From the NCBI RefSeq assembly GCF_013002225.1, contig NZ_JABDKL010000061.1: 64,000 nt of DNA. One strand, given 5' to 3'. Source of the stretch: Winogradskyella sp. (GTDB taxonomy: Bacteria > Bacteroidota > Bacteroidia > Flavobacteriales > Flavobacteriaceae). Below the pieces are notes generated by a model that worked only from the letters and a program-made list of their open reading frames with translations, searched no databases and was not told where the DNA came from. The position numbers and the translations under genes are program-made. How positions within the stretch are numbered: the stretch's first letter is position 1; the number at the start of each line of letters is the position of its first letter. Below, one piece after another: positions 1,084-54,846 of the stretch.

Positions 1084-1752
1084 TTATAAATACCCTTTTT
1101 CTCGAGCTTCATGAAGAAGTGATTCGTCCTTACCATCAGACACAGAAAAGATTAACTTAAGTTGCTTTTTACGTTTTTCTAGCGCGCTAGTAGATAACGG
1201 TATATGCTCATTTAGACTTTTAGTTTTTACACCCTGTGACAATAAATGTAGAATTTTGCGATTAACATCATCTACATAAATCTCGCTTGTAATTGTCTTT
1301 TTAACGTAATTATTAACTGTGCTGCTATAATATGGTGGCGAATTTAAAATTTGCTGAAAAGCATCGGCCAATTCCATAGAGGTCAGATCACTTTTAATTA
1401 AAAAACCATCCGGATTAATTTCTTTTATAATATTATGAATTCTAAAAGATTCATTAAACATGGTAAGTATAATTATTTTAGCATTGGGTAACACGCGTTT
1501 TGCCAGAAGTGCCAAATCTTCTCCACTAGCAAATTTACCATCTTCGGAGGCCGGTAAACTAATATCAAAAAAGCACACATCGTAGGGTGTATCTTTTGAA
1601 GCTCTATTAATCATTAACTGAGCAGTATCACAATTATTTGCCGTGTCAATTAATAAGGTTTGATCGTCTTCCTTAGTAGCCATTAATACATTTTGGTAGC
1701 CTTCGATGATAATAGGGTGATCATCTACCATTAAAATATTAATATGTTTCAT
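1084..1752 (-). CDS. two-component response regulator, NarL/FixJ (LuxR HTH) family
   Basis: N-terminal receiver (ILMVDDHP..., FFDISLP) and C-terminal LuxR-type HTH region. 4-nt ATGA overlap with the upstream kinase gene. Confidence 0.85.
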   Translation of the reverse strand: MKHINILMVDDHPIIIEGYQNVLMATKEDDQTLLIDTANNCDTAQLMINRASKDTPYDVCFFDISLPASEDGKFASGEDLALLAKRVLPNAKIIILTMFNESFRIHNIIKEINPDGFLIKSDLTSMELADAFQQILNSPPYYSSTVNNYVKKTITSEIYVDDVNRKILHLLSQGVKTKSLNEHIPLSTSALEKRKKQLKLIFSVSDGKDESLLHEAREKGYL

Positions 1753-3779
1753 TCGGGTTGGTTTGTATAAGGTATTCTAACTTTTACAATAGTTCCATTA
1801 CCAGATTGAGATGAAAAGGAAATTTCTCCATTAACATCCTGAACACGCGAGGACATATTTTTTAAACCAATACCCTTTTTACTTTTGGTAGTATCAAATC
1901 CATCTCCGTCGTCGATAATGTCTAAGCAAATTACATCATTTTCTAAAGAAATGCTAATTTTAATGGTTTTGGCATTGGCATGCTTATATATATTTTGAAG
2001 GGACTCTTGAATAATCCTATAGATGTTAATTTTTGTTTTGTTAGAAACCAAATCCCAACTTACATCGTCTGTATAAATAAACTCTGATTTTAAACCATAG
2101 GCTATAGATTGGCTATCAATAAGTTCTGATACAATATTCATAAAACCTGTCCCAGAAACAAAATCTGTATTTAACTCATGAGAAATTTTACGTATGTCTT
2201 CCTCGATCAGTTTAAGTTGACTTATGTAATTTGCTCTTGTAAGCATAGCCTCCTTGCCGTCCTTAAAATTTATACTATCAAGACTCAGGCGCGTCCCAAA
2301 GAGACGACCTAAAACGCCATCGTGCAATTCTTCAGAAATTCTAGTTTTTTCTTTAGCTCTGGCTTCATCCACTCTATTTTGCTGGCCCAACATAAGATTG
2401 TAAATCTCCTCATTAGCTTCTTGCTGTAACTGGATAAGTTTTAATTTTCTGTTTTTTGCGCGTTGAGAAATTATGGCATAAATAAGAGCTGCTGTTAGCA
2501 ACAAACCGATTAAAAGAATAACTAAATAAAGATTTTCCTTAGATATCTGCTCATTTTCTGCTTCGAGCTGATCAGTCTCGAACTCAATGCGAGCATATTT
2601 ATTTCTAACGCTTCGTTCTACCCTAAGCAGACTATCTGTAAGTTTGATATGCTCTTGGAGAAAGGCTTTGCCTTTTTCTCCTTCAGTAACCTCAGATAAG
2701 ATTAAGAGTGCCTCTTGTTTTACTTCATTTGCAAATACGTCGTAAGAAATCTTAAGCGCTTCATTTGCGTACTTAGTTACTGAATCTTTCTGAGGAACTT
2801 TTTTATACAGTTTGGAAAGATGTAAGGCCACATTCATTCTTAAAACATCATCCTTGAGCTTATGGGTTAATTTGTAAGACTCTCTTAGCTTATTTTTTAC
2901 TGTATTAAAATCAAAGTTTCCAGATTCTAATTCAGTAGCCGCAATGTTTGTTAATATTGTTGGATAAAAGGAAGGGTCAACCTCTTCATATTTTGTTCTT
3001 AAGGCTAAAAGACTCCTATAGATGTCCTTAGCTTTATCAAAATCCTCAAGTTGTCGATAAACATAGGCTTTATTGTTGAGCGAATAGACTTCATTAACAA
3101 ATCCATCATTAATTTTTTTTGCATATGAATTTGACTGCTCATAATACTCCAAAGCTTTTTTATAGTTGCCTGACTCCCTAGAAATTATACCCATTAAATT
3201 GTAGGCATTCCATAATTTATCTAAACGATTTTGTGTTTCTGGTAGTCTATTTAAAATTATGATAGAGTTGATAGCTGCTTCTTCAGCTCCAGCATAAATT
3301 TTCTCTATTTGCAATATATCTGCCAAATAGAGAAACGCTGTTGCTTTTGACTCTGAAATCTCACTTGCAGGATAATATTTTAGTGCCTGAGAATAATAAT
3401 AATATGAACTATCATTTTGCTCATAATATCTATACATAGAGCCTAAGTTAGAACCAGCTACAGTTATGGCTGAAGAATCTTTGATTAATCTGGCAAGCTC
3501 GAAATTATCTCTATTTAATGCAATGTATTCATCATACATTTCAGACTCAAAATAGCGCACAGATAAATTTCTATTAGCCATAAGAATAATAGAATCTTGA
3601 TTTATTTGTCTAGCAATTTTGCTTGAAGTAAGAGCAAATTCTAACCTTTTATCAATTGAATAATTCTCTTCGTTTGATTTAACAATTAGACTATTGATTG
3701 AATCTAGTAAACTATTTTGAGCATTTACTGTTGATAAAAGTAGATGCAACATAAGGAATGCAAAAAATAGATTTCTCAT
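1749..3779 (-). CDS. sensor histidine kinase with N-terminal signal peptide, TPR-like repeats, one TM helix, and HisKA_3 + HATPase_c
   Basis: Repeated Y/A-rich TPR-like segments. TM helix LYLVILLIGLLLTAALIYAI. H-box ELHDGVLGRL. ATPase G-boxes DDGDGFD and GIGLKNM. Confidence 0.85.
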   Translation of the reverse strand: MRNLFFAFLMLHLLLSTVNAQNSLLDSINSLIVKSNEENYSIDKRLEFALTSSKIARQINQDSIILMANRNLSVRYFESEMYDEYIALNRDNFELARLIKDSSAITVAGSNLGSMYRYYEQNDSSYYYYSQALKYYPASEISESKATAFLYLADILQIEKIYAGAEEAAINSIIILNRLPETQNRLDKLWNAYNLMGIISRESGNYKKALEYYEQSNSYAKKINDGFVNEVYSLNNKAYVYRQLEDFDKAKDIYRSLLALRTKYEEVDPSFYPTILTNIAATELESGNFDFNTVKNKLRESYKLTHKLKDDVLRMNVALHLSKLYKKVPQKDSVTKYANEALKISYDVFANEVKQEALLILSEVTEGEKGKAFLQEHIKLTDSLLRVERSVRNKYARIEFETDQLEAENEQISKENLYLVILLIGLLLTAALIYAIISQRAKNRKLKLIQLQQEANEEIYNLMLGQQNRVDEARAKEKTRISEELHDGVLGRLFGTRLSLDSINFKDGKEAMLTRANYISQLKLIEEDIRKISHELNTDFVSGTGFMNIVSELIDSQSIAYGLKSEFIYTDDVSWDLVSNKTKINIYRIIQESLQNIYKHANAKTIKISISLENDVICLDIIDDGDGFDTTKSKKGIGLKNMSSRVQDVNGEISFSSQSGNGTIVKVRIPYTNQPE

Positions 3780-4453: not shown

Positions 4454-5911
4454 TTAATTTAGGATTAAGTTAAGCGAAAAAACAGTTATTGATGTGGTAC
4501 CAGTACCTGTTAAACGCTGCCCCCAAATTTCTATATAATCATTTGGTGCCAATTCAACAGTTCCGTTAATACAATTACTGGAAATATCGGATGTATCGTT
4601 AACTCGCATTAATGTATTAGTTTCTGTTAGTAAGGTAGTGCCATTTTTTTTAATAAAAAATGCATAAAAATCGCCTACGCCAGAATTACCTCTTACCGAT
4701 AATGCAGCATTAACTTGGAAGGTTCTTGTTTTTTTACCAAGATAAGTAATACGATTATCCTGAGGAGATGAAGTTCTTAAGGAATTAACCAATGTTGTTG
4801 AATTGGCATTACTGTTACCTCTAAGATTTATTGGGCTTCCATTTGTAAAATCCTGAATAAAACCAGATGTAATAGTTCCATCATAATAAATATTACCTGT
4901 ACTTACCTCATCTGCCTCAACAGGTATTCCTGGACAATTTACAGTCCACGAGTTGGTGAAATTATAGTTTGGAAATGTATTTGTAGTATAAGGATTTACA
5001 TATTGTGTTGCTGTTCCATTAAAACTAACACCAGTTAACACTGCCGTAGAAACGGTAGGATTACTGCTAACATCAATCCCCACATTAGCCCCACTAACCG
5101 ACATAAACCCACCTTGTTTTTGAATAAACTTAAAGGTACCTGTATAAGTTTCATAACTACCACTATTGGAATCCTGCCAACCTATATTACTCAGTAATAG
5201 ATCTGTAATACTGTTAAACGTAATACCGCTTGTGTTATTTACATATTGCAACACCGAAAAATAAATTAAGTTAAAATTAGCAATAGTACCAATGTCATTA
5301 GAATTAACAACATTTGCGTCTTTAAACACAAGGTTTTCTGCACTTGTTCCGTTTAAATTAAATATCGTTCCTCCTGGTGCAGTCACCGTTATATTTTTAA
5401 TTACGCCACCTTTACTACCTTCGAACATTGTTCCTCCAACTTTTACTAAAATATCGTCCGAGGAATCAATACCTGTAATATAGGCATCGTTAATATCTAT
5501 GGGGTAGGCTAGACTTATGGTACCATTGATTTCATATACCACATCTGACGTTAGCAAGTATTTAGAACCACCTCCCGCAGTCAGTTCTTCGCTTAGATCT
5601 GCAACAGATTTAATAAGCTTATAATTCTCTCTTAAACTAGCGTCTACCTCTAACCAACCTGTAGATTTATAAAAATAAAAACCACTTAATGTTGTATCAT
5701 AAACTAACAATCCTTCTGCCGGACTAACTATGGCATTACGTTGTGTTGTAGTCATCCTTGGTGTTAACAATCCGCTTTCTGTAGAACTTATATCTAGGAT
5801 TGCAGAAGCATCAGGTATTGTAGTTCCAATACCAACCTGCGCGTAGGTAAATAATCCCAATAATAATATGACGAGACAGTTAATTTGTTTTTTTGTTTGT
5901 AGATTATTCAT
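4454..5911 (-). CDS. secreted protein of unknown function; N-terminal motif conserved in Bacteroidota surface or tail-fibre-like proteins, N/T/S/G-rich beta-rich core
   Basis: Signal peptide CLVILLLGLFTYAQ, then VGIGTTIPDASAILDISSTESGLLTPRMTTTQRNAI..PAEGLLVYDT. 485 aa with very few charged residues. No recognisable T9SS C-terminal domain. Confidence 0.65.
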   Translation of the reverse strand: MNNLQTKKQINCLVILLLGLFTYAQVGIGTTIPDASAILDISSTESGLLTPRMTTTQRNAIVSPAEGLLVYDTTLSGFYFYKSTGWLEVDASLRENYKLIKSVADLSEELTAGGGSKYLLTSDVVYEINGTISLAYPIDINDAYITGIDSSDDILVKVGGTMFEGSKGGVIKNITVTAPGGTIFNLNGTSAENLVFKDANVVNSNDIGTIANFNLIYFSVLQYVNNTSGITFNSITDLLLSNIGWQDSNSGSYETYTGTFKFIQKQGGFMSVSGANVGIDVSSNPTVSTAVLTGVSFNGTATQYVNPYTTNTFPNYNFTNSWTVNCPGIPVEADEVSTGNIYYDGTITSGFIQDFTNGSPINLRGNSNANSTTLVNSLRTSSPQDNRITYLGKKTRTFQVNAALSVRGNSGVGDFYAFFIKKNGTTLLTETNTLMRVNDTSDISSNCINGTVELAPNDYIEIWGQRLTGTGTTSITVFSLNLILN

Positions 5912-6011: not shown

Positions 6012-6473
6012 TTAGAACAAAACAGGAACGAAGCTAAATGGCTGTACGCCTCTAGAACCTCTACTACTGGAATGTTTCTTTACCAGCTTTTCTATTTTCT
6101 CTTTTGTTAAGGGCTTATCTATGTAACCAGAGCAATACGCTTCTTTTTCCGCTCTTTGAATATCTTCCAGGTATAATGAAGAGGTGAGCATTATAATTTT
6201 TACATCTTTAGCTTTTGGTAGATTTAGGGCTTTATATTCTTCAATAAATTGAAATCCATCAATTTGTGGCATATTAATATCCAGTAAAATGACATCTGGC
6301 ATCACAATAGTCTCAGAGTTATGTTTTAAAGGACATATCTTAAGGTAGTTGAGTGCTGAAGTGGCGCTATTAAATGTCCTCACATTGATCTCTGAGTCGT
6401 ATTTCTCAATTATCTTTTGACTGACAAATAGATCTATTTTATTGTCATCGATTATAATGATGTTTTTAACCAT
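6012..6473 (-). CDS. stand-alone receiver (CheY-like) response regulator
   Basis: IIIIDDNKID..., DVILLDINMP, MLTSS and DKPL receiver signatures. No output domain. 6 nt downstream of the kinase gene. Confidence 0.85.
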   Translation of the reverse strand: MVKNIIIIDDNKIDLFVSQKIIEKYDSEINVRTFNSATSALNYLKICPLKHNSETIVMPDVILLDINMPQIDGFQFIEEYKALNLPKAKDVKIIMLTSSLYLEDIQRAEKEAYCSGYIDKPLTKEKIEKLVKKHSSSRGSRGVQPFSFVPVLF

Positions 6474-6479
6474 AATTAA

Positions 6480-8327
6480 TTATTTTAGATTGGGGATTTC
6501 TATTCTAAATGTTGTACCTATATTAAGTTCACTCTCTACATTTATGTGTCCAGAGAGATCATCTACAATACACTTTACGATATACAAGCCTAAGGCGCTT
6601 CCTTGAACTCCTTCGTTATTTACTCTGTAATACAGGTCAAATATTCTTTCTAAGTTTTCGTCACTAATACCTCTGCCATTATCCTTTATAAGAATATCTA
6701 AACTTTGGTGAGATTGAGATACATCTATAGTTATAGTAGGCAAATGAGATGCCTCTAACGGTTTACAGTAGTAAATTGCATTTTGGATAAGATTTTGAAG
6801 CATAGAATTGAACAAATCCTTATTTGAATAAAACCGAATATCCTCATTAACATTGATACAAAATTTAATCTCTTCAAAATTCTCTAGCGAGCTAAGTGCC
6901 TGTAATGTTTTATCTACTTCTTTATTAATATTAATAGAAGACACTTGGCACTTCTTTTGAGATATTACAGACGCAAACGATAAGTTATCTAACAAGAGTT
7001 TTCCTCTGTTTAAACTCACATCTAACATCTCTATAATATTTGAAATATGTTCCTGTTTATTCTCGTGTTTTATTAGATTTATTAAACCTTCTATGGTTGT
7101 TAAAGGCGCCTTAAGGTCGTGAGCTGCACGGTATAAAAACTGCTCTAGGTCTTCTGTTTTTTGCTGTAATTTATTTTCTAACGATTTTCTGTTAGATATA
7201 TCTAACATAATCGCAGAAAAATATCTGTCTTTACCACAATACCAGCTACTAACTGCAAACTCAACCGGAAACTTTTCTCCATTTTTTCGAACGCCTACCA
7301 TTTCTAGCGTATCGCCCTGAGCGCAATCTTCCAAATGGTCTTTTAGATACAGCAATTGTTGTATGCTTGTTTCCATATGTTCTTCTGCTATCAGCAGAGT
7401 CAATGACTGACCTAAAACCTCTTTTTCTGAATAACCAAAAGCTGATTCAGCACCTTGATTCCATTCTGAAATATTACCATTACTATCTGCTACAACGATA
7501 ATTCCAACGTTTATCGATTGGAAAATAGTACTGTATTTAGCTTCAATAGCTTTTAACTCACTAACAACTTTTATATCCTCTGTTCGTCGTTCTGTTGTTA
7601 CTTTTGCAAAGACAACTTCATTATAATTATTAAAAACAGGCTCAATTTCAGAAAAGTAAAGTGCCTTTTCTTTTTCAGATGCCTGAGAGGCAAACCTAAA
7701 CCCATTAATAGTCTGTAAATTAAAAACCTCTTTTATCTTAGACTTAACAGCAAAATGATACTCTTGTTCTATATAATCATAGATGTAAGAACCAACGATT
7801 TCATCAAATTCTACTTGTCTATATTCATTAAACGCTCTTAATATTTTACCGCGTTCATTGAGACTTAGAACAAGTTGAGGGAATTTTTTAACAATGGCTT
7901 TTTTACAGGTATCTAGTTCTTCCACTAAATGATCCTGGTGGTAATAATTAGTTATATCATTATAGAATGAAATATACTTTTCTATTGTTCCTTTTTTATT
8001 TTTTACAGGAACAACAGTAGTCTGTAACCAGTACTTATTAGACTTAGAAACATTATAAGGAAGTACTCCCGTCCAAACCTCACCATTTGTAATGGTGCCC
8101 CATAAATTCTTATATAAAGAATCTGAATGTAAGCGTGATTTTAGAATGGAACTTGTTTCCCCTATAATATTGTGCTTATTAACCCCTAATATTTTACAAT
8201 ACCCTTCGTTGACATCTTTAATCCGCTCGAAAGTATCTATAACAGCTACATTATGATGCGCATTAACAGCATCGTAAACTTGAGCTTTTTGATCAATATC
8301 AATATTTTTTAACTGTAGTGATTGCAT
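6480..8327 (-). CDS. cytoplasmic multi-PAS sensor histidine kinase
   Basis: No TM helix. PAS-like segments. H-box FLYRAAHDLKAPLTTI. ATPase boxes NLIQNAIYY, DNGRGIS and GSALGLYIV. Confidence 0.85.
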   Translation of the reverse strand: MQSLQLKNIDIDQKAQVYDAVNAHHNVAVIDTFERIKDVNEGYCKILGVNKHNIIGETSSILKSRLHSDSLYKNLWGTITNGEVWTGVLPYNVSKSNKYWLQTTVVPVKNKKGTIEKYISFYNDITNYYHQDHLVEELDTCKKAIVKKFPQLVLSLNERGKILRAFNEYRQVEFDEIVGSYIYDYIEQEYHFAVKSKIKEVFNLQTINGFRFASQASEKEKALYFSEIEPVFNNYNEVVFAKVTTERRTEDIKVVSELKAIEAKYSTIFQSINVGIIVVADSNGNISEWNQGAESAFGYSEKEVLGQSLTLLIAEEHMETSIQQLLYLKDHLEDCAQGDTLEMVGVRKNGEKFPVEFAVSSWYCGKDRYFSAIMLDISNRKSLENKLQQKTEDLEQFLYRAAHDLKAPLTTIEGLINLIKHENKQEHISNIIEMLDVSLNRGKLLLDNLSFASVISQKKCQVSSININKEVDKTLQALSSLENFEEIKFCINVNEDIRFYSNKDLFNSMLQNLIQNAIYYCKPLEASHLPTITIDVSQSHQSLDILIKDNGRGISDENLERIFDLYYRVNNEGVQGSALGLYIVKCIVDDLSGHINVESELNIGTTFRIEIPNLK

Positions 8328-8734
8328 TACAAATCATCTTTATAGGTTAAACAATACTGTTTAGCAGTCTCAAAATCTTTAAAGATTCTGTATGGCGTTT
8401 CTGATTCATATATTCTCTTGTAGGAGTGAACTAATAGTGTTGTGTTTATTGAATTAGATACGAACGCCTCACATAATCTTATCTTATTTAAAGCAGGGCT
8501 GTCTGCTAATAATTTTGCAATTTCTGTAGAAAATGTTCCCAAAGTAGATTGCATGTCTATTATAAAAGGAATAGGCTTACCCTCCGAAAGCGTATAGATG
8601 GCATCTACATATTGGCTCAGTCTCTCTTTTGCATTTAACTTAATAGCCTTAGTATTTAAGATCTGGCAGAATAAGATACCGTGTTCTGTCCAAAACTTAA
8701 CGGTATCAAATTCAATTAGCAATGTGTTATTCAT
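8327..8734 (-). CDS. 135-aa protein of unknown function, first gene of the sigma54-driven operon (possibly a STAS/SpoIIAA-like fold)
   Basis: Its TAA stop overlaps the kinase ATG by 1 nt (TAATG). Alternating beta/alpha pattern. No catalytic motifs recognised. The fold assignment is a guess. Confidence 0.6.
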   Translation of the reverse strand: MNNTLLIEFDTVKFWTEHGILFCQILNTKAIKLNAKERLSQYVDAIYTLSEGKPIPFIIDMQSTLGTFSTEIAKLLADSPALNKIRLCEAFVSNSINTTLLVHSYKRIYESETPYRIFKDFETAKQYCLTYKDDL

Positions 8735-8768
8735 AGATTAAAAATGTATTTCAACGATAAGATTAATG

Positions 8769-8783
8769 GCAAGCCCTGTGCCA
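8769..8783 (-). promoter_or_regulatory. sigma54 (-24/-12) promoter
   Basis: Minus strand reads TGGCAC AGGGC TTGC with exact GG-N10-GC spacing. The TTGC lies 35 nt upstream of the ATG at 8734, and the adjacent upstream gene encodes a sigma54 activator. Confidence 0.8.
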
Positions 8784-8874
8784 CAACTTCAAAAAATGAA
8801 AAAATAAATTTCTAAAAGCCTGAATATCATACACTTAAATTGGAGTGCTGAATTTTTGTTGAATTTGATAATAA

Positions 8875-8925
8875 CGGAATACCGTTAGTGATTAAGAATC
8901 TCAAAGCCATTCTGCGGAATACCGT
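8875..8925 (-). promoter_or_regulatory. pair of putative enhancer (UAS) sites for the sigma54 activator
   Basis: Identical 11-mers CGGAATACCGT at 8875-8885 and 8915-8925 (plus-strand reading), exactly 40 bp apart, each with a CGG-N4-CCG dyad. They lie about 95 and 135 bp upstream of the -24 element. Confidence 0.55.
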
Positions 8926-8927
8926 GG

Positions 8928-11900
8928 TTAGCTTTTCTTAATGCCTAACTTTTTTATGCGATCTCTTAATGTACTTGGTTTTATCTGAAGTAGTTGCGAG
9001 GCTCCATTATCGCCTTCTATTTTCCAATTGCACTGACTAAGTATTTTTTCTATGTGCAACCGTTGTACATCGTTTAGACTAAGTACTGATTTAGAAATTG
9101 AAGTTTCTTTTGAGTCAGACACAAAGCCAGGAACAAATAGTGTCTCTGCATTAGACAGAATTACGGCGCGCTCTATTAAATTTTCTAACTCTCTTATATT
9201 TCCTGGCCAATGATAATTCTGTAAGGCCAATTTAGTGTCTTGAGGTATAAACTTTATGGTTTTATTATACTTCTTGCCAAACCTATTAACAAAATGTTCT
9301 ATTAAAATAGGAATGTCTTCTGTGCGTTCTCTTAATGGTGGCACAGTAACCGGGAAAACATTTATTCTAAAATATAGATCTTCTCTAAAATTATTTTTAT
9401 CAATTTCAGCTTTTAAATCTCTATTGGTAGCGGTAATAATTCTAATATCAACTTTTTCTGTTTTAGTACTGCCAATAGATTCTATTTCACCCTCTTGAAT
9501 GGCGCGCAACAATTTTGGTTGCATATCGATTGGTAATTCGCCAATTTCATCTAAAAACAGCGTGCCACCATCTGCTAGTTTAAATTTCCCATCCTTGTCA
9601 CTAAATGCTCCTGTAAACGATCCTTTTGTATGGCCAAACAACTCACTTTCAATAAGTTCTTTTGGTATTGCCGCACAATTTACCTTAATAAGTGGCTTAT
9701 CTTTTCTATTACTTATGTTGTGAATAGCTCTTGCCAAAAGCTCCTTACCTGTACCAGATTCACCAAGCAAGAGCACAGTGGCATCAGTAACTGCAACGGT
9801 TTCAATATCTGTTAGTACATCACTAAATGCAGCACTCCCATAAACCATTTCCTCATAGTTAAAAGCGAGATCCAACTCTTCTTTTAAATAGACGTTTTGT
9901 TTTTCTAATTCTCTTTTTAAATCTGTAAGCTCTTTGTTTACCTGAATTAATTTTTCATTAGATTCTAACAGGTTATTTTCTGCTTTTGTTCTTTCACGGG
10001 TCTCTATCATTAAAGATATAATTGTCGCGACTGAAGCTGCAAAGTTTTCTTCTTCGCTCGTAAACACTCTATCTTGTACAGCACACTCAAAACTTAAAAT
10101 TCCGTAGCGTCTATTTTTACTGAAAATTGCCGCATCGAGTTTGCACCCATTTACATTTAAGGCTTTAAGCGCTTTCGCATATTTTATCGTTCTTGGATCT
10201 TCTTTTATATTAGGTATACTTAAAAGGGAATTACTTTTCAGCGCTTTAAAGTAATCTGGCATTTCCGTTTCACTTAAAACTAAATCATTGTCAATTTGAG
10301 TTGTTTTATCTGTATCGAAGAATAAATTCCCATGTATTCTACTTTGATCATCATTAAACTTCCAGATTATAATGGTATTAATATTTAATGCCTTAGATGC
10401 TAGTTGCGTTATTTTTTTGATAACCGTGTTATAATCCTGTCCTATTAAGGTAACCATTGTAGAAATAGCATCCTTTCGTTGTTTAGATAACCTAGCCGCT
10501 TCCCTTAATGCCTTAGCTTCTGATTTGCGCTTCGTAATATCATTGATCGTGGTAAAATATGCAATGGTTTCGCCATCATTGTTCTTTACAGAGGATAGTG
10601 CTAAAGAAACCGGAAACCGCGTACCGGTTTTAGTCATATACCAAAATTCTTTAATATTTTTTCCCCAATGATCTCTTTGCTTAAAAACATTAAAAAATTT
10701 GTCATGGTCTTCGGGAGGCCAGTATTTAAATGGCGGTTTTGAACCTACAAGTTCTTCTTCTGTAAACCCCGTCATTTCACAAAGTGCCTTATTAACCCTT
10801 ATACTTTCTCCTTTAGGATTTACAACAGATAGCCCTTCTTGTAGAGAATTTAATAGCTCTTCAGAAAATTCTTTTTCAAGTATTAAGTTTGTTTCAACTT
10901 TTTTTCGCTGGTTATTTTCGACTGCCAGAGACACAATACTTGCAATAGTTGTAGCAAATTGCTCCTCGGCTGATGTCCATTTTCTTTTTTCGCCTATTTG
11001 TTCAAAACAAATAACACCAAATGGCTTTTCTACGCCACTAATAAAAACATCTAGCATGGATGTAATACCAAAGTCCGAAAGATAATCGCTGGCTAATTCT
11101 TTAGTAATTCTATTATGATAGACATCATCTATTTTAAGGGTCTTTCTTTTATATAAAGCTTTAAAATAAGACGGGTAATTCTCAGAATGCAACGTGAGCG
11201 TATCTACAAATTTGTTAGTCTCTAAATTATAGGCATTAATACAGTGAATTGCAGTTTCGTCCTCATTAAATTTCCACAAACTTACACGTGCCACCTCCAG
11301 CACGTTTGATGACGTTGAAGTTATTGTTTTTAAAATATCATCGAAATCAGAACCAATGAGGTTTACTAATTTTATAATAGCATCTCTGTTAACTTCTGCC
11401 TTTTCCGATTTTTCCTTTAATTCATTCTGATACTTAATGCGTTCTGAAATATCAATGATGGTAGATACATAACCAATAATTTCATTTTTATGATTGGTAA
11501 TTTTAGCTGAAGCTGCAGCGACCTCAAATCGATCACCATTTGCCTTTTTAAAAATAAGCTGATCCCTATCAAAAACACCATCTAATCCAAGCTTTACATA
11601 CTTTCTAAATTTTTCATATTGCTCAGGTGGCCAGTGCGGAAAGGGCTGCTTAGTCCCCACAATATCCGATTCTTTAAAACCTGTTAACTCGGTATAAGCT
11701 TTATTAACACGTATACAGGTTAAATTAGCGTCCAATACTATTAAACCTTCATACATACTATCTAAGAGTCGGTCAGAAAAATTCTTGGTTATATACAGTT
11801 CATTTTCTGTGTTTTTAAGCGCGCTTATATCTAAAATTGAGGATTGTACATAGGCACTACCTTGAAGTTGGATAAACTGAAAAGTTGCCAGTCCGTAAGT

Positions 11901-12215
11901 TTTTAAACCATCTTTTCTTAACACCTCAATTTCATGAGATTTAAAAACTTGCTTTTCTGTTAACACCTCTCTAATAGAATCTGCTTCTTTAAAAGAAATG
12001 AGCTTTAATTCTTCAACCGTTTTACCAACAACATCTTTACGTTTGTATCCTGTAAATTTTTCCCACGACTCATTGACATCTACTAATTTTCTATCCTTTT
12101 TATTTGAAAGTGTGTGTGGCGTAGGGTTATTATGAAATATTTTAGCATATGGGCTATTCTGTGCAAATACAGTTTGTGAAGATTTTTCGATATGGTCGCC
12201 CTTATTACTTTTCAT
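8928..12215 (-). CDS. sigma54-dependent transcriptional activator (bEBP): PAS, PAS-GAF, PAS-GAF, AAA+, Fis-type HTH; no receiver domain
   Basis: Walker A GESGTGKE. ELFGHTKGSFTGA (GAFTGA-loop variant). Walker B TLFLDEIGE. WPGNIRELEN. C-terminal HTH ASQLLQIKPSTLRDRIKKLGI. The N-terminal 790 aa contain an internally duplicated PAS-GAF module. Confidence 0.9.
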   Translation of the reverse strand: MKSNKGDHIEKSSQTVFAQNSPYAKIFHNNPTPHTLSNKKDRKLVDVNESWEKFTGYKRKDVVGKTVEELKLISFKEADSIREVLTEKQVFKSHEIEVLRKDGLKTYGLATFQFIQLQGSAYVQSSILDISALKNTENELYITKNFSDRLLDSMYEGLIVLDANLTCIRVNKAYTELTGFKESDIVGTKQPFPHWPPEQYEKFRKYVKLGLDGVFDRDQLIFKKANGDRFEVAAASAKITNHKNEIIGYVSTIIDISERIKYQNELKEKSEKAEVNRDAIIKLVNLIGSDFDDILKTITSTSSNVLEVARVSLWKFNEDETAIHCINAYNLETNKFVDTLTLHSENYPSYFKALYKRKTLKIDDVYHNRITKELASDYLSDFGITSMLDVFISGVEKPFGVICFEQIGEKRKWTSAEEQFATTIASIVSLAVENNQRKKVETNLILEKEFSEELLNSLQEGLSVVNPKGESIRVNKALCEMTGFTEEELVGSKPPFKYWPPEDHDKFFNVFKQRDHWGKNIKEFWYMTKTGTRFPVSLALSSVKNNDGETIAYFTTINDITKRKSEAKALREAARLSKQRKDAISTMVTLIGQDYNTVIKKITQLASKALNINTIIIWKFNDDQSRIHGNLFFDTDKTTQIDNDLVLSETEMPDYFKALKSNSLLSIPNIKEDPRTIKYAKALKALNVNGCKLDAAIFSKNRRYGILSFECAVQDRVFTSEEENFAASVATIISLMIETRERTKAENNLLESNEKLIQVNKELTDLKRELEKQNVYLKEELDLAFNYEEMVYGSAAFSDVLTDIETVAVTDATVLLLGESGTGKELLARAIHNISNRKDKPLIKVNCAAIPKELIESELFGHTKGSFTGAFSDKDGKFKLADGGTLFLDEIGELPIDMQPKLLRAIQEGEIESIGSTKTEKVDIRIITATNRDLKAEIDKNNFREDLYFRINVFPVTVPPLRERTEDIPILIEHFVNRFGKKYNKTIKFIPQDTKLALQNYHWPGNIRELENLIERAVILSNAETLFVPGFVSDSKETSISKSVLSLNDVQRLHIEKILSQCNWKIEGDNGASQLLQIKPSTLRDRIKKLGIKKS

Positions 12216-12494
12216 AAAACATTTGAGCTATTTATAGCACTATCCTTACAGTGATTACACTGATTAATTGGTTTTTAAATAAATGTTTTAGTCAAGCAAG
12301 AAACTTGAAGGTATTAAAAATAGTGATACACAGCGTGTTAAATCACATATACTTTTAACTCAAATACGTTGAAAACAAAAAAGCATCCCGATTTTCTTAT
12401 TCAGAAAAAAGGAAAGCCTTTCATTGGTAAGTCCCATTATTAGAGGACTCACTACTACTCCGAGATTGCTCTCGGAACAACACAACATCATTAT

Positions 12495-12524
12495 ATTAAA
12501 AAAGCTCTAATTTCTCAGAGCTTT
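12495..12524 (-). terminator. terminator after tRNA-Asp
   Basis: AAGCTCT (12502-12508) pairs with AGAGCTT (12517-12523), followed on the minus strand by a T-run. Confidence 0.6.
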
Positions 12525-12535
12525 AGCAATTTTAG

Positions 12536-12609
12536 CGGTCTGGACGGGACTCGAACCCGCGACCTTCGCCGTGACAGGGCGACATTCTAACCAGCTGAAC
12601 TACCAGACC
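12536..12609 (-). tRNA. tRNA-Asp (anticodon GTC)
   Basis: Reverse complement reads GGTCTGGTAGTTCAGCTGGTTAGAATGTCGCCCTGTCACGGCGAAGGTCGCGGGTTCGAGTCCCGTCCAGACCG. It has a 7-bp acceptor stem, D-loop AGTTCAGCTGGTTAGAA, anticodon loop CTGTCAC and T-arm GGTTCGAGTCC. No CCA is encoded. Confidence 0.95.
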
Positions 12610-12684
12610 GTTGCGTAATTGCGAGGGCAAATATACATTGCATTTTTAATTTGGCAAACAAAATTCATAAAAAAAGGTAAATTT

Positions 12685-13620
12685 TTAAACAAATTTTTTG
12701 CGTTCAATCATAAAGGTAGTAAGGATACTATTAAATCCTGCATTTATATTGGCTTCGACATATTTAATTCTATACTGACCACACTTTAATCTTAAATTTT
12801 CAAAATATTGCCCAACCGCCTTTTCATAGTTCTCTTTAATAGTGTCGGCATATAAATTTATGTGCTCACCTGTCTCTATATCTACGAAGCGCTTAGGTCG
12901 GTTATCAAAATTAAAAGCTAATTCTTTCGCCTTATCAAACACGTGAAATAAAACCACTTCATGTTTATTATGTTTTAAATGTCGGAGTGCTTCAAACAAC
13001 TTTTCATCATCTTCCGTGGTTTGAAACATATCTGTAAACACAAATATGAGGGATCTTCGATGAATCTTTTCTGCAATTTGATGTAGATACTGATAGGTTT
13101 CGGTATTCTTAGAATGTGCACGACTAACGACTGCCTCACTTAGCTTGTTTAATAGCATTTGGTGATGACGCTCACTGCCTTTTTCTGGAGCATAAAAATC
13201 ATAAGTATCACTATAGATACTCAAACCAACGGCATCTCGCTGTTTTTTTAAAATATGCATCAGAGACGCACCTGCCAATGCCGAAAATGCTATCTTATTA
13301 AGATTTTCTATGGTGTTACCAGCCGATTTCGGATAGTGCATCGAGCTACTATTATCTAATATAAGGTGACATCTTAAATTAGTTTCTTCATCAAAACGTT
13401 TTGTGTATAAACGATCTGTCTTAGCATACAACTTCCAATCAATGTGCTTTGTGCTTTCACCTTGATTATAAATTTTATGTTCTGCAAACTCCGCAGAAAA
13501 ACCATGGAAAGGACTCTTATGCATCCCTGCGATAAAGCCTTCAACCACCTGTTTAGCGAGTAATTCCAGATTTTTAAATCCTCCTGCTTTATTTAGCTCT
13601 AACTGTAAATCCATAAGCAA
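12685..13620 (-). CDS. DUF58 domain protein (vWA-like, usually MoxR-associated)
   Basis: HKSPFHGFSAEFAEHKIYNQGESTKHIDWKLYAKTDRLYTKRFDEETNL is the characteristic DUF58 N-terminal block, followed by a vWA-like LILDNSSSM segment. Confidence 0.8.
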   Translation of the reverse strand: MLMDLQLELNKAGGFKNLELLAKQVVEGFIAGMHKSPFHGFSAEFAEHKIYNQGESTKHIDWKLYAKTDRLYTKRFDEETNLRCHLILDNSSSMHYPKSAGNTIENLNKIAFSALAGASLMHILKKQRDAVGLSIYSDTYDFYAPEKGSERHHQMLLNKLSEAVVSRAHSKNTETYQYLHQIAEKIHRRSLIFVFTDMFQTTEDDEKLFEALRHLKHNKHEVVLFHVFDKAKELAFNFDNRPKRFVDIETGEHINLYADTIKENYEKAVGQYFENLRLKCGQYRIKYVEANINAGFNSILTTFMIERKKFV

Positions 13621-53967: not shown

Positions 53968-54846
53968 ATGGCATCATCATTTGACAACTACCAAAGACGT
54001 AAACTCATATCATCTTACATCTCAGTAGTCATAAGTATCGCTTTGGTATTATTTCTTCTTGGTTGTTTAGGATTATTGGTTATTAACTCTAAAAAAGTAG
54101 CCGATCATTTCAAGGAACAGGTCGTGATGACCATTTATTTAAATGATACGGCGAAGGAGGTCGAAGTTAATCAGCTAAAAAAGAGTTTAGCGATGGCAGA
54201 TTACACAAAAGAAGCTCAGTATGTTTCTAAAGAAGAAGCGGCTGAATTAATGCAAGCTGAAACTGGAGAGGATTTTATGGATTTTGTTGGTTATAATCCG
54301 TTAAAAAACTCAATTGATGTGTATCTTAAAGCAGATTATGTTACCACGGAACAGCTTACTTTGATTACCGAAAGTTTATCTAATAAAGCCTTTATAGAAG
54401 AAATTCGCTATGACAATGATCTGGTAGAATTAATGAATGATAATGTTAAAAAAATCACCTTCTGGGTACTGATAATTAGCGGACTTTTTACTTTGATTGC
54501 CGTTTTATTGATCAATAGTTCTATAAGATTGGCAGTATACTCAAAACGATTTATTATTAAAACCATGCAAATGGTAGGAGCTACAAAAAGTTTTATACGC
54601 AAACCTTTTATCTGGAAAAGTGTACAACTTGGAATTATTGGCGCTATTGTTGCTCTAATTGGCATGGCTGTTGTCTTATATTATTTAGATCTAACCTTCC
54701 CAGAATTGGAATTGCTTACCAATACAATTATGATAGCAAGTCTTTTTGCTGGCATATTTTTAATTGGCGTTTTCATTACCTGGATCAGTACATTTATTGC
54801 AACACAACGGTTTTTAAATTTAAAGACCGACCAACTGTATTATTAA
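53968..54846 (+). CDS. ftsX: cell division protein FtsX-like permease
   Basis: One TM helix, a periplasmic domain, then three TM helices in the FtsX/MacB-type topology. 292 aa. Confidence 0.75.
   Translation: MASSFDNYQRRKLISSYISVVISIALVLFLLGCLGLLVINSKKVADHFKEQVVMTIYLNDTAKEVEVNQLKKSLAMADYTKEAQYVSKEEAAELMQAETGEDFMDFVGYNPLKNSIDVYLKADYVTTEQLTLITESLSNKAFIEEIRYDNDLVELMNDNVKKITFWVLIISGLFTLIAVLLINSSIRLAVYSKRFIIKTMQMVGATKSFIRKPFIWKSVQLGIIGAIVALIGMAVVLYYLDLTFPELELLTNTIMIASLFAGIFLIGVFITWISTFIATQRFLNLKTDQLYY

What the first reader, a model, noticed from the sequence alone, without database searches (positions are those of the whole stretch)
8769..8925. Perfect sigma54 promoter with paired enhancer-like repeats right after a sigma54 activator gene
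Minus strand 8783 to 8769 reads TGGCAC-AGGGC-TTGC, with exact GG-N10-GC spacing, 35 nt upstream of the ATG at 8734. Further upstream in minus-strand sense are two identical 11-mers CGGAATACCGT, at plus-strand coordinates 8875-8885 and 8915-8925. Each contains the dyad CGG-N4-CCG, and they are exactly 40 bp apart, about 95 and 135 bp from the -24 box. That is the classical bEBP enhancer geometry. Between them and the promoter, TATCATACACTTA (8825-8837) is a near match to the IHF-type WATCAANNNNTTR bend site. The second repeat begins 3 nt after the activator's stop codon. Activator, probable UAS and target promoter are therefore all readable within 160 bp. Sigma54 circuits in Flavobacteriia are little studied.
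Basis: partly seen in the sequence, partly recalled or inferred. Interest (0 to 1): 0.7.

Follow-up and report, generated by a model that had tools for sequence, protein, structure and literature searches.

The report
Conserved sigma-54 enhancer-promoter module in Flavobacteriaceae
The 160-bp gap after a sigma-54 activator gene holds a complete switch (two activator sites, a DNA-bending site and a sigma-54 promoter) that recurs with the same geometry in about 70 related marine flavobacterial genomes; it is a real but classical type of control region, not yet studied in this group.

Summary
On the minus strand, TGGCAC-N5-TTGC (8783..8769) lies 35 nt before the ATG at 8734. Two copies of ACGGTATTCCG lie 40 bp apart, directly after the stop codon of a 1095-aa PAS-GAF-PAS-GAF-AAA+-HTH sigma-54 activator.

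In 80 related Flavobacteriaceae loci the gene order is conserved: activator, then DUF7793, then a PAS histidine kinase, then a receiver-only response regulator.
- **Module count.** 70 complete modules were found in 68 sources.
- **Activator sites.** Each module has two palindromes, cACGGTAT(T/A)CCGTg, 39-41 bp apart.
- **Promoter position.** TTTGGCAY-N5-TTG follows, mostly 94-99 bp from the centre of the proximal palindrome. The outliers differ by about one helical turn.
- **New element.** A conserved 25-bp dyad, TAA-N4-CTGAT-W-ATCAG-N4-TTA, lies halfway between enhancer and promoter. It amounts to two inverted IHF-type boxes.
- **Unusual -12 element.** The canonical -12 C is present in only 3 of 74 orthologous promoters. 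The window is one of these exceptions.
- **Target gene.** The first gene of the operon encodes a protein with a STAS-like fold.

This is a new, uncharacterised member of the classical bEBP/sigma-54/UAS/bend architecture. Nothing has been tested experimentally, and rpoN could not be checked in this genome.

The parts
8928..12215 (-). Gene for the presumptive activator: a 1095-aa bEBP with the domain order PAS-PAS-GAF-PAS-GAF-AAA+(sigma-54 interaction)-lid-HTH(Fis type).
   Evidence: Pfam: Sigma54_activat 1.3e-70, PAS, GAF and AAA_lid_14. GSFTGA at residue 865, Walker A at 818, Walker B at 886. The C-terminal HTH_8 match has E=5.6e-4 and 20 bits against a cut-off of 22. The recognition helix KPSTLRD is invariant in orthologues. 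The protein scores below the NCBIfam cut-offs for NifA, NorR and FhlA.
8913..8926 (-). Distal UAS palindrome CACGGTATTCCGCA, centred about -162 from the predicted TSS. Its right arm is imperfect.
   Evidence: The family PWM score is 15.8 bits against a training median of 22.6. The equivalent site sits directly after the activator stop codon in nearly all orthologues.
8873..8886 (-). Proximal UAS palindrome AACGGTATTCCGTT, centred about -122 from the predicted TSS.
   Evidence: PWM score 22.6 bits. It lies 40 bp from the distal site. The family spacing is 39 bp (23 cases), 40 bp (38), 41 bp (8) and 42 bp (1).
8813..8837 (-). 25-bp dyad TAAGTGTATGAT-A-TTCAGGCTTTTA, equivalent to two inverted IHF-type boxes (YAA-N4-TTGATW / WATCAR-N4-TTR). 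It is centred 43 bp upstream of the -24 GG, about -68 from the predicted TSS, and is a probable DNA-bending or architectural protein site.
   Evidence: Positional enrichment: 47 of 74 orthologues have WATCAR-N4-TTR (up to 1 mismatch) at offsets -44..-41 on the promoter strand, and 28 of 74 have the inverted copy at -56..-53. Background away from these peaks is about 0.2 hits per offset. The dyad PFM and 61.5% complementarity about the centre are. Symmetry is confined to the consensus positions in loci without a terminator. The window region forms no stable RNA hairpin.
8791..8807 (-). T-rich tract (TTATTTTTTCATTTTTT) just upstream of the -24 element.
   Evidence: In the alignment anchored on the GG, offsets -27..-18 are 64-78% T. 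In 15-18 loci this tract is the U-run of an intrinsic terminator. The window has no such hairpin.
8769..8783 (-). Sigma-54 -24/-12 promoter TGGCAC-AGGGC-TTGC.
   Evidence: It is the only exact match in the window, against 0.07 expected. Orthologous promoters sit at the same place in at least 74 loci, with consensus TTTGGCA(C/T)-N4-A-TTG-[G/T/A].
8756..8758 (-). Predicted transcription start, around 8757, giving a 5' UTR of about 23 nt.
   Evidence: Inferred from the rule that the C of GC is -12. It has not been mapped. The GG-to-ATG distance is 48 nt here and mostly 37-54 nt in orthologues.
8327..8734 (-). First target gene: a 135-aa DUF7793 protein with a predicted STAS/SpoIIAA-like fold.
   Evidence: Pfam PF25056, E=1.7e-9. 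AlphaFold2 model with pLDDT 77 and pTM 0.76. Foldseek matches to a STAS protein (4xs5), RsbS (6jhk), SiaC and DUF3478, with TM 0.55-0.66.
6480..8327 (-). Second target gene: a 615-aa PAS-PAS-HisKA-HATPase_c histidine kinase. Its start codon overlaps the stop codon of the DUF7793 gene.
   Evidence: Synteny is conserved across the loci.
6012..6473 (-). Third target gene: a 153-aa receiver-only response regulator with no output domain.
4454..5911 (-). Probable fourth gene of the regulon: a 485-aa protein with a hydrophobic, signal-peptide-like N-terminus (judged by eye) and no Pfam or NCBIfam family.
   Evidence: The terminator scan finds no terminator-like site on the minus strand between 6012 and 5911. 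In L019, L020, L025, L037, L049 and L083 its homologue sits directly behind the activator-proximal UAS and promoter; a second promoter or UAS hit lies in front of the DUF7793 genes in these loci, and both were detected in four of the six.

Best explanation
The region 8769-8926 is the complete cis-regulatory region of a sigma-54-dependent operon encoding a STAS-like DUF7793 protein, a PAS histidine kinase and a receiver-only response regulator, and probably the 485-aa protein downstream.

Proposed mechanism:
1. Dimers of the adjacent PAS/GAF-sensing bEBP bind through their Fis-type HTH to two palindromes, cACGGTAT(W)CCGTg. These are centred about -122 and -162, four helical turns apart, and so lie on one face of the DNA.
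2. On a signal sensed by the PAS/GAF domains, the AAA+ domains form the active ring.
3. A protein-induced or intrinsic bend at the 25-bp IHF-type dyad, centred at about -68 and midway between enhancer and promoter, loops the DNA.
4. The GSFTGA loops then contact sigma-54 holoenzyme held in a closed complex at TGGCAC-N5-TTGC.
5. ATP hydrolysis opens the promoter, and transcription starts near 8757.

Shown here: the sequence elements, their conservation, the fixed and helically phased geometry, the domain content of the proteins, and the synteny. Inferred: which protein binds which site, the looping, the signal and the transcription start.
For: **Sequence and domains.** The elements are at the stated coordinates, and the ORF has the domains and motifs of a sigma-54 activator.

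**Synteny.** The order activator, DUF7793 (one or two copies), histidine kinase, response regulator holds in loci from more than 20 named Flavobacteriaceae genera.

**Phylogenetic footprinting.** The intergenic DNA is otherwise not conserved, yet 70 complete modules occur in 68 of 81 sources. All are on the activator strand.
- UAS spacing is 39-42 bp.
- The distance from the proximal UAS centre to the GG is 94-99 bp in 61 of the 70, and 85-87 bp in the other 9.
- A looser count also finds cases at 108-111 bp. The deviations are therefore steps of about one helical turn.

**Specificity.** In 1.18 Mb scanned, strong UAS and promoter PWM hits fall almost only in these modules. The window contains exactly one module.

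**Match between activator and site.** The HTH recognition helix KPSTLRD is invariant, as is the invariant UAS core CGG-TAT(W)-CCG.

**Module duplicated as a unit.** Seven loci carry a second module, in front of further DUF7793 genes or a P485 homologue, with the same internal distances.

**The dyad.** The IHF-type dyad is positionally conserved.

**Sigma-54 itself.** rpoN is reported in 74 of 75 Flavobacteriia genera (PMC12316311 supplement).

**Alternatives excluded.** No Rfam family matches the region, and it forms no significant RNA structure (z = -0.32).
Against: - There is no experimental evidence of any kind: no mapped transcription start, no binding data and no expression data.
- rpoN could not be checked in the source genome. 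It is not in the 64-kb window.
- Assigning the palindromes to this particular activator rests on co-localisation and conserved geometry only.
- The HTH_8 match is just below Pfam's cut-off (20 bits against 22).
- The window's distal site is imperfect (15.8 bits).
- Orthologous promoters lack the canonical -12 C in 71 of 74 cases. Either the sigma-54 of this family has relaxed -12 requirements or these promoters behave atypically.
- Bacteroidetes lack IHF-beta and have only an 'IHF-alpha-like' protein whose sequence specificity is untested (bioRxiv 10.1101/2024.06.24.600358). The protein that binds the dyad is therefore unknown.
Confidence: 0.8

Rival explanations
1. The sigma-54 promoter is real, but the two palindromes are operators for a different DNA-binding protein, such as a repressor or another dimeric regulator. 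The neighbouring bEBP would then act from other sites or from solution.
For: No binding data exist. The 12-14-bp palindrome has half-site centres only about 7-8 bp apart, which is shorter than classical NtrC or NifA sites. bEBPs that act without a UAS are known from the literature (my own knowledge).
Against: The sites always sit next to this activator gene and at an enhancer-type, helically phased distance of about 97 bp (+/- 11) from the promoter. The activator's recognition helix is as invariant as the site. No other DNA-binding gene is conserved in the cluster, and the response regulator is receiver-only. Second copies of the module keep the same sites.
Confidence: 0.08
2. The 25-bp dyad between enhancer and promoter is not an IHF-type bending site. 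It would instead be the operator of a specific dimeric co-regulator, or the eroded remnant of an intrinsic terminator that ends the activator transcript.
For: In 15-18 of 73 loci the same position carries a full terminator hairpin with a U-run, whose apex is the dyad. Classical IHF sites are asymmetric, whereas this one is symmetric. From my memory of the IHF-H' structure, the inferred kink spacing in a symmetrised site would be about 7 bp rather than 9. No HU or IHF gene is seen in the window.
Against: In the 44 loci without a terminator (the window included), complementarity is confined to the IHF-consensus positions: 0.67, against 0.38 at the N4 positions and 0.40 in the outer flanks. This argues for recognition at the DNA level rather than RNA pairing. 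Both halves match WATCAR-N4-TTR. The centre lies midway between the proximal UAS and the promoter, where a bend is most useful. A homodimeric IHF-alpha-like protein would be expected to prefer a symmetric site (inference drawn).
Confidence: 0.35
3. The palindromes act at the RNA level, as 3'-end hairpins or terminators of the activator mRNA, and are not enhancers.
For: They lie immediately after the stop codon. In a few species (for example L008, L023 and L034) the palindrome extends into a longer hairpin followed by T residues. The scan tool flags the distal site as terminator-like, but on the opposite (plus) strand.
Against: The stems are only 4-6 bp with a 2-4 nt loop. The base sequence itself is conserved, not just the pairing. 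There are always two copies at 39-41 bp. The window region folds no better than shuffled sequence (z = -0.32). No minus-strand terminator is called. Where real terminators exist, they lie further downstream, between the UAS and the promoter.
Confidence: 0.03
4. The promoter and repeats are chance matches in AT-rich intergenic DNA.
For: With one mismatch allowed, the promoter pattern is not enriched in the window: 6 found against 2.67 expected.
Against: The exact match has an expectation of 0.07, and the pair of CGGTAWWCCG has an expectation of 0.13. The same three elements recur at the same relative positions in 68 sources.
Confidence: 0.01

Closest known systems
XylR/Pu (TOL plasmid) and DmpR/Po: sigma-54 promoters with two UAS and an IHF site
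   Same: A signal-sensing bEBP without a receiver domain. Two dyad UAS roughly 120-170 bp upstream, on one helical face. An IHF-type site centred around -50 to -80 between enhancer and promoter. A T-rich, UP-like tract upstream of -24. The positions for Pu and Po are recalled from the literature, not tested here.
   Different: The sensor is PAS-PAS-GAF-PAS-GAF instead of V4R. The UAS is a short 12-14-bp palindrome spaced 40 bp from its partner rather than about 30 bp. The bend site is dyad-symmetric. The host phylum has no IHF-beta. The activator gene lies directly upstream on the same strand, with the enhancer starting 0-12 nt after its stop codon.
NifA/nifH and FhlA/hyc: GAF-containing bEBPs
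   Same: A GAF domain immediately precedes the AAA+ domain. These are the best NCBIfam similarities: NifA 386 bits and FhlA 353 bits. NifA promoters also combine a UAS at about -100 to -130 with IHF (my own knowledge).
   Different: The scores are below the equivalog cut-offs (528 and 830), so the protein is not a member of either family. The UAS is not TGT-N10-ACA. The targets are signalling proteins, not nitrogenase or hydrogenlyase genes.
NtrC/glnAp2
   Same: Two strong dyad sites in helical phase that serve to assemble the AAA+ oligomer, with the same requirement for a -24/-12 promoter.
   Different: There is no receiver domain and no phosphorylation control. An IHF-type element is present, unlike at glnAp2. 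The site sequence is different.
Canonical sigma-54 promoter consensus TGGCAC-N5-TTGCW (Barrios et al. 1999, recalled; consensus as quoted in PMC12316311)
   Same: GG and TTG are invariant with identical spacing in all 74 family members. The window matches the consensus exactly.
   Different: In the family the -12 C is G (35), T (22) or A (14), and C in only 3 of 74 cases. In the classical compilations it is about 90% C (recalled).
Proteobacterial IHF site WATCAR-N4-TTR
   Same: Both halves of the dyad fit this consensus, and the location between UAS and promoter is the classical one.
   Different: The site is symmetric, with two inverted boxes sharing the central W, instead of one box plus an A-tract. 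The organism is expected to have only an IHF-alpha-like protein.
STAS partner-switching modules (RsbR/S stressosome, SiaABCD)
   Same: The first gene of the operon has a STAS/SpoIIAA-like fold and sits next to a kinase.
   Different: The kinase is a HisKA/HATPase_c histidine kinase paired with a receiver-only response regulator, not an RsbT/RsbW/SiaB-type serine kinase. No PP2C phosphatase gene is in the cluster. The phosphorylation site was not examined.

Membership tests
Sigma-54 (-24/-12) promoter | GG and GC dinucleotides exactly 10 bp apart, within TGGCAC-N5-TTGC | tested here: met
   The exact match lies at 8783..8769.
Sigma-54 (-24/-12) promoter | Conserved at the orthologous position in related genomes | tested here: met
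   74 orthologous promoters share invariant GG, CA and TTG. The -12 C itself is kept in only 3 of 74.
Sigma-54 (-24/-12) promoter | rpoN present in the genome | not testable with these tools
   There is no RpoN box in the 64-kb window and the rest of the genome is unavailable. The literature reports rpoN in 74 of 75 Flavobacteriia genera.
Sigma-54 (-24/-12) promoter | Transcription starts about 12 nt downstream of the GC and depends on sigma-54 and a bEBP | not testable with these tools
   This needs 5' RACE or dRNA-seq, and mutants.
Bacterial enhancer-binding protein (NtrC-family AAA+) | Sigma-54 interaction AAA+ domain with Walker A and B motifs and a GAFTGA-type loop | tested here: met
   PF00158 E=1.3e-70. 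GESGTGKE, LFLDEI and GSFTGA are present. GSFTGA occurs in 72 of 78 orthologues and GAFTGA in 4.
Bacterial enhancer-binding protein (NtrC-family AAA+) | C-terminal Fis-type HTH (HTH_8) | tested here: inconclusive
   PF02954 E=5.6e-4, 20 bits against a gathering score of 22. The motif KPSTLRDxxxKLG is conserved.
Enhancer (UAS) of a bEBP | Dyad-symmetric sites, at least two, in helical phase, about 80-200 bp upstream of the promoter | tested here: met
   The palindromes are 40 bp apart and centred about 98 and 138 bp from the GG. The family spacing is 39-42 bp, and the distance to the promoter is quantised in steps of about 11 bp.
Enhancer (UAS) of a bEBP | Bound by the cognate activator and required for activation | not testable with these tools
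   This needs EMSA or footprinting, and reporter fusions.
IHF binding site | Match to WATCAR-N4-TTR | tested here: inconclusive
   The window has two inverted boxes with one mismatch each (8825..8813 on the minus strand, 8825-8837 on the plus strand). Such matches are not rare in this AT-rich DNA.
IHF binding site | Conserved position between enhancer and promoter | tested here: met
   47 of 74 orthologues have the box at offsets -44..-41, and 28 of 74 have the inverted box at -56..-53. Background away from these peaks is about 0.2 per offset.
IHF binding site | Asymmetric site (consensus on one side, A-tract on the other) bound by an alpha/beta heterodimer | tested here: not met
   The element is dyad-symmetric. 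Bacteroidetes are reported to lack IHF-beta. I therefore call it 'IHF-type' by resemblance only.
NifA / NorR / FhlA equivalogs | Score above the NCBIfam equivalog cut-off | tested here: not met
   386 bits against 529, 354 against 476, and 353 against 830.
Intrinsic terminator between activator gene and promoter | Stable hairpin followed by a U-run on the minus strand | tested here: not met
   None is called in the window. Fold z-scores are -0.32 and -0.2. The feature is present in 15-18 other loci.
STAS / SpoIIAA-like domain (for DUF7793) | Beta-alpha fold superposable on STAS proteins | tested here: met
   Model pLDDT 77. Foldseek probability 1.0 and TM 0.55-0.66 to 4xs5, 6jhk and 1til. The alignment behind the model had only 3 sequences.
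Known RNA families (riboswitch, sRNA) in the intergenic region | Rfam match at gathering score | tested here: not met
   The only match in 8000-13000 is tRNA-Asp at 12536-12609.

The most novel reading that the evidence does not exclude
The conserved 25-bp dyad TAA-N4-CTGAT-W-ATCAG-N4-TTA, midway between enhancer and promoter, would be the native sequence-specific site of the Bacteroidetes-only 'IHF-alpha-like' protein acting as a homodimer. On this reading, Flavobacteriaceae use a symmetrised IHF site for sigma-54 enhancer-promoter looping. Their sigma-54 would also recognise a -12 element, TTG[G/T/A], without the canonical C. That would give the first defined binding site for this protein clade and a phylum-specific variant of sigma-54 promoter architecture.
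Probability: 0.3. Interest if true: 0.65.

Novelty: new member of a known kind. Interest (0 to 1): 0.45.

Why it matters
Sigma-54 regulation is essentially unstudied experimentally in Bacteroidota. The validated-promoter table (S2, 720 promoters) of PMC12316311 gave no hit for six Bacteroidota names I searched.

This module provides, for a whole family of marine flavobacteria:
- a defined activator-site consensus;
- exact geometry, with helical phasing visible in natural variants;
- a family-specific promoter matrix;
- a candidate architectural-protein site.

All of these are ready for reporter, EMSA and regulon-scan experiments. The module also shows that promoter scans built on TTGC will miss most promoters of this family. 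Finally, it offers a natural test case for a question raised in a 2025 preprint: whether the Bacteroidetes IHF-alpha-like protein binds DNA sequence-specifically.

The biological output is unknown. The targets form a second-tier signalling set: a STAS-like protein, a PAS kinase, a receiver protein and a protein with a signal-peptide-like N-terminus.

Tried and rejected
- **Homologues of the DUF7793 protein.** The word-index search gave only 3 hits. Their short contigs show a different context, with no intergenic region upstream, so they were of no use for footprinting.
- **Strict promoter regex.** A search for TGG[CT]A[CT]-N5-[TC]TGC downstream of the orthologous activators found only 2 of 80. 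This at first looked like non-conservation. Reading the sequences showed the promoter is there but lacks the -12 C.
- **Faulty promoter regex.** My first relaxed regex had the wrong spacer length. It was corrected.
- **First hairpin finder.** One search missed obvious terminators. It was replaced by whole-segment folding with shuffles.
- **Second PWM promoter hit.** The hit in the window near 54660 (plus strand) lies inside a 292-aa membrane-protein ORF that looks FtsX-like by eye. It has no UAS and was rejected as chance.
- **HU/IHF genes.** This is uninformative for the genome as a whole.
- **Rfam.** No family matches the intergenic region.
- **Literature.** No paper holds the UAS sequence in a relevant context or mentions DUF7793. 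The Dokdonia MED134 genome paper, which is said to discuss a sigma-54 regulon, is not held in the library.
- **DUF7793 against PDB by sequence.** There was no significant match. A match appeared only at the fold level.
Full report
**1. The observation**

Reading the minus strand of 8500-9100 confirms every coordinate.
- TGGCACAGGGCTTGC lies at 8783..8769.
- The ATG of a 135-aa ORF is at 8734.
- ACGGTATTCCG lies at 8925..8915 and again at 8885..8875.
- The first copy begins 3 nt after the TAA (8930..8928) of a 1095-aa ORF (8928..12215).

That ORF is a bona fide sigma-54 activator. Pfam finds Sigma54_activat at E=1.3e-70, with three PAS and two GAF regions and an AAA lid. Walker A, Walker B and a GSFTGA loop are present. 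The last 68 residues hit the Fis-type HTH_8 model at E=5.6e-4, just under the curated cut-off.

Within the window the exact promoter pattern is unique (0.07 expected). The core CGGTAWWCCG occurs only at these two places (0.13 expected). The proposed IHF box is present with one mismatch, but such matches are common in this 35% G+C DNA. By itself it proves nothing.

**2. Surroundings**

Downstream on the same strand lie four genes:
- a DUF7793 protein (8327..8734);
- a PAS-PAS-HisKA-HATPase_c kinase whose start overlaps the preceding stop (6480..8327);
- a receiver-only response regulator (6012..6473);
- after a 100-bp gap in which the scan finds no terminator, a 485-aa protein with a signal-peptide-like N-terminus and no family assignment (4454..5911).

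Upstream of the activator are a tRNA-Asp gene and a DUF58 gene. No Rfam family matches the intergenic region, and it has no RNA structure beyond that of shuffled sequence (z = -0.32).

**3. Related loci**

A search of one genome per species with the activator protein returned 80 loci. All are Flavobacteriaceae, from genera including Winogradskyella, Bizionia, Gelidibacter, Lacinutrix, Algibacter, Psychroserpens, Olleya, Maribacter, Mariniflexile and Xanthomarina.

tBLASTn with the window's proteins shows that the order activator, DUF7793 (one or two copies), kinase, receiver is kept in most of the loci, often with the 485-aa protein nearby. Sixteen loci also keep the DUF58 gene upstream, as in the window.

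A strict TTGC regex at first suggested the promoter was not conserved. Reading the sequences showed the opposite. Immediately after the activator stop codon, nearly every locus has two palindromes and then a TTTGGCA(C/T)-N5-TTG element.

**4. Quantification**

A PWM-based search for complete modules covered 1.18 Mb. A complete module was defined as two UAS 38-42 bp apart plus a promoter at the expected distance. The search finds 70 modules in 68 of 81 sources, all on the activator strand.

- **UAS spacing.** It is 39 bp (23 cases), 40 bp (38), 41 bp (8) or 42 bp (1).
- **Distance to the promoter.** From the centre of the proximal palindrome to the first G of the GG it is 94-99 bp in 61 modules and 85-87 bp in 9. 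A looser count also shows 108-111 bp in three loci. The deviations are steps of about one helical turn, the signature of a face-of-the-helix constraint on looping.
- **UAS consensus.** It is cACGGTAT(T/A)CCGTg, with CGG and CCG essentially invariant.
- **Specificity.** Strong PWM hits outside the modules are rare. The window has exactly one module.
- **Sources lacking a complete module.** Most have a weaker second site or a longer distance. L079 was a frame artefact. L082 has a recognition helix with R changed to T and no UAS at all.
- **Activator helix.** In all other loci the helix KPSTLRD is invariant.
- **Duplicated modules.** Seven loci carry a second module with the same internal distances, in front of further DUF7793 genes or the homologue of the 485-aa protein. 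This places that protein in the regulon.

**5. The promoter family**

In 74 aligned promoters GG, C, A, TT and G are invariant or nearly so. The base at the classical -12 C position is G (35), T (22), A (14) and C (3). The window's 'perfect' TTGC is thus the exception. Scans that require TTGC would miss this family.

The distance from GG to the start codon is mostly 37-54 nt (48 in the window). This implies short leaders of about 12-29 nt.

**6. A third conserved element**

Anchoring all sequences on the GG reveals conserved columns around -55 to -30 and a T-tract at -27 to -18.

Matches to WATCAR-N4-TTR (up to one mismatch) pile up at offsets -44..-41 on the promoter strand in 47 of 74 sequences. 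Inverted matches pile up at -56..-53 in 28 of 74. Away from these peaks the background is about 0.2 hits per offset.

Aligned on the box, 60 sequences give a 25-bp dyad, TAA-N4-CTGAT-W-ATCAG-N4-TTA. Complementarity about the centre is 61.5%, against about 30% for shifted centres.

In the window the dyad is TAAGTGTATGAT-A-TTCAGGCTTTTA (8837..8813). The better conserved half is 8825..8813 on the promoter strand.

In 15-18 loci the same position is the apex of a long A/U-rich hairpin followed by a U-run. That is an intrinsic terminator for the activator transcript, placed between enhancer and promoter. In the other 44 loci, the window included, symmetry is confined to the IHF-consensus positions: 0.67, against 0.38 at the N4 positions and 0.40 in the flanks. 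This argues for recognition by a dyad-symmetric DNA-binding protein rather than RNA pairing.

The dyad centre (-43 from the GG) lies midway between the proximal UAS centre (-97) and the promoter. That is where a sharp bend would juxtapose the two.

A 2025 preprint reports that Bacteroidetes lack IHF-beta and have a clade-specific IHF-alpha-like protein. Its oligomeric state and sequence specificity are untested (10.1101/2024.06.24.600358). A homodimer of such a protein would be expected to prefer a symmetric version of the IHF site. This is my inference and is not shown.

**7. Mechanism**

The most likely mechanism is the classical one.
1. The PAS/GAF-sensing activator binds the two palindromes as dimers on one face of the helix.
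2. On signal perception it oligomerises.
3. A bend at the dyad loops it onto sigma-54 holoenzyme, which is held in a closed complex at 8783..8769.
4. ATP hydrolysis opens the promoter, with a start near 8757.

The product is a second-tier signalling set. DUF7793 is predicted to have a STAS/SpoIIAA-like fold. The AlphaFold2 model has pLDDT 77 from a three-sequence alignment. Foldseek matches it to a Dyadobacter STAS protein, RsbS, SiaC and DUF3478 at TM 0.55-0.66. It is followed by a PAS kinase and a receiver-only protein. What the system senses or controls is unknown.

**8. Comparison with known systems**

In layout the module resembles XylR/Pu, DmpR/Po and NifA/nifH: two UAS or a dyad UAS at about -120 to -170, an IHF site at about -50 to -80, and a -24/-12 promoter. 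Those positions are recalled from the literature.

The activator is not a member of the NifA, NorR or FhlA equivalogs, because its scores are below their cut-offs. The dyad is 'IHF-type' by resemblance only, because the defining asymmetry and the alpha/beta heterodimer are not met.

Searches of the held literature found no description of the site, of DUF7793 or of this circuit. The large sigma-54 promoter compendium appears to contain no validated Bacteroidota promoter, while listing rpoN in 74 of 75 Flavobacteriia genera and about 7-8 bEBPs per genome.

**9. Verdict**

The comparative data upgrade it from a plausible single-sequence motif to a family-wide conserved module with defined matrices and geometry.

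In kind it is ordinary: a new, uncharacterised member of the bEBP/sigma-54 enhancer architecture. Two features deserve follow-up, the missing -12 C and the symmetric IHF-type dyad in a phylum without IHF-beta. Everything beyond sequence, conservation and domain content remains inference.

Noticed in passing
L009, L010, L019, L020, L022, L025, L037, L049, L052-L055, L058, L059, L065, L072, L083 (between proximal UAS and -24 element): In 15-18 loci a canonical intrinsic terminator (a 12-16-bp A/U-rich perfect stem plus a run of 6-10 U) sits between the enhancer and the sigma-54 promoter, built on the same dyad. The activator transcript would therefore read through its own binding sites and stop just before the promoter. 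The window lacks this hairpin, so read-through from the activator gene into the operon is possible there.
   Followed up: partly
L052/L064 (one Algicola MAG), L058/L068 (Psychroserpens mesophilus), L063/L080 (Xanthomarina sp. F2636L), L061/L071 (Xanthomarina MAG): Some genomes carry two paralogous activator-plus-module copies with the same UAS core and the same HTH recognition helix. This suggests possible cross-regulation between the two systems. The flanking bases of the proximal site differ slightly between the two groups.
   Followed up: no
L013, L019, L025, L037, L049, L073, L083 (second modules 1-4.5 kb downstream of the first): The whole module (two UAS, dyad, promoter) is duplicated with the same internal distances. 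One copy lies in front of the homologue of the window's 485-aa protein and another in front of the DUF7793 genes.
   Followed up: partly
window 4454..5911 (-): A 485-aa protein with a signal-peptide-like N-terminus and a conserved N-terminal stretch (VGIGTTIPDASAILDISST...GLLTPRMT) has no Pfam or NCBIfam family. It is 55-67% identical to proteins that accompany the module in many loci.
   Followed up: partly
window 12535..12609 (-): A tRNA-Asp (GTC) gene lies between the DUF58 gene and the activator gene. A Bacteroidetes-type TAnnTTTG -7 box (TATATTTG) lies about 420 nt upstream of the activator ATG, ahead of the tRNA.
   Followed up: partly
L082 (Halomarinibacterium sedimenti), activator C-terminus and downstream 6 kb: This homologue matches only the AAA+-HTH part. 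Its recognition helix reads KPSTLTD (R changed to T), and the 13-kb locus has no UAS or sigma-54 promoter hit. It may be a natural negative control for the link between helix and site (n = 1).
   Followed up: no
all UAS sites in modules: The central tetranucleotide of the palindrome is orientation-biased: TATT 55, TATA 47 and AATA 15. This is unexpected for a purely symmetric dimer site. It may reflect shared ancestry or a real asymmetry.
   Followed up: no
window 54655..54675 (+): ATTGGCATGGCTGTTGTCTT scores 19.5 bits on the family promoter matrix. It lies inside a 292-aa membrane-protein ORF (53968..54846, FtsX-like by eye) and has no UAS. It was judged to be chance.
   Followed up: yes
window 8912..8927 (+): The terminator scan flags the distal UAS palindrome plus the following T-rich stretch as terminator-like on the plus strand, antisense to the activator. 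This is probably incidental.
   Followed up: no
window 1084..3779 (-): A separate TPR-containing HisKA_3 histidine kinase (676 aa) is followed by a 222-aa response regulator whose C-terminal half has no Pfam match. The pair lies downstream of the cluster and is not obviously linked to the sigma-54 module.
   Followed up: no
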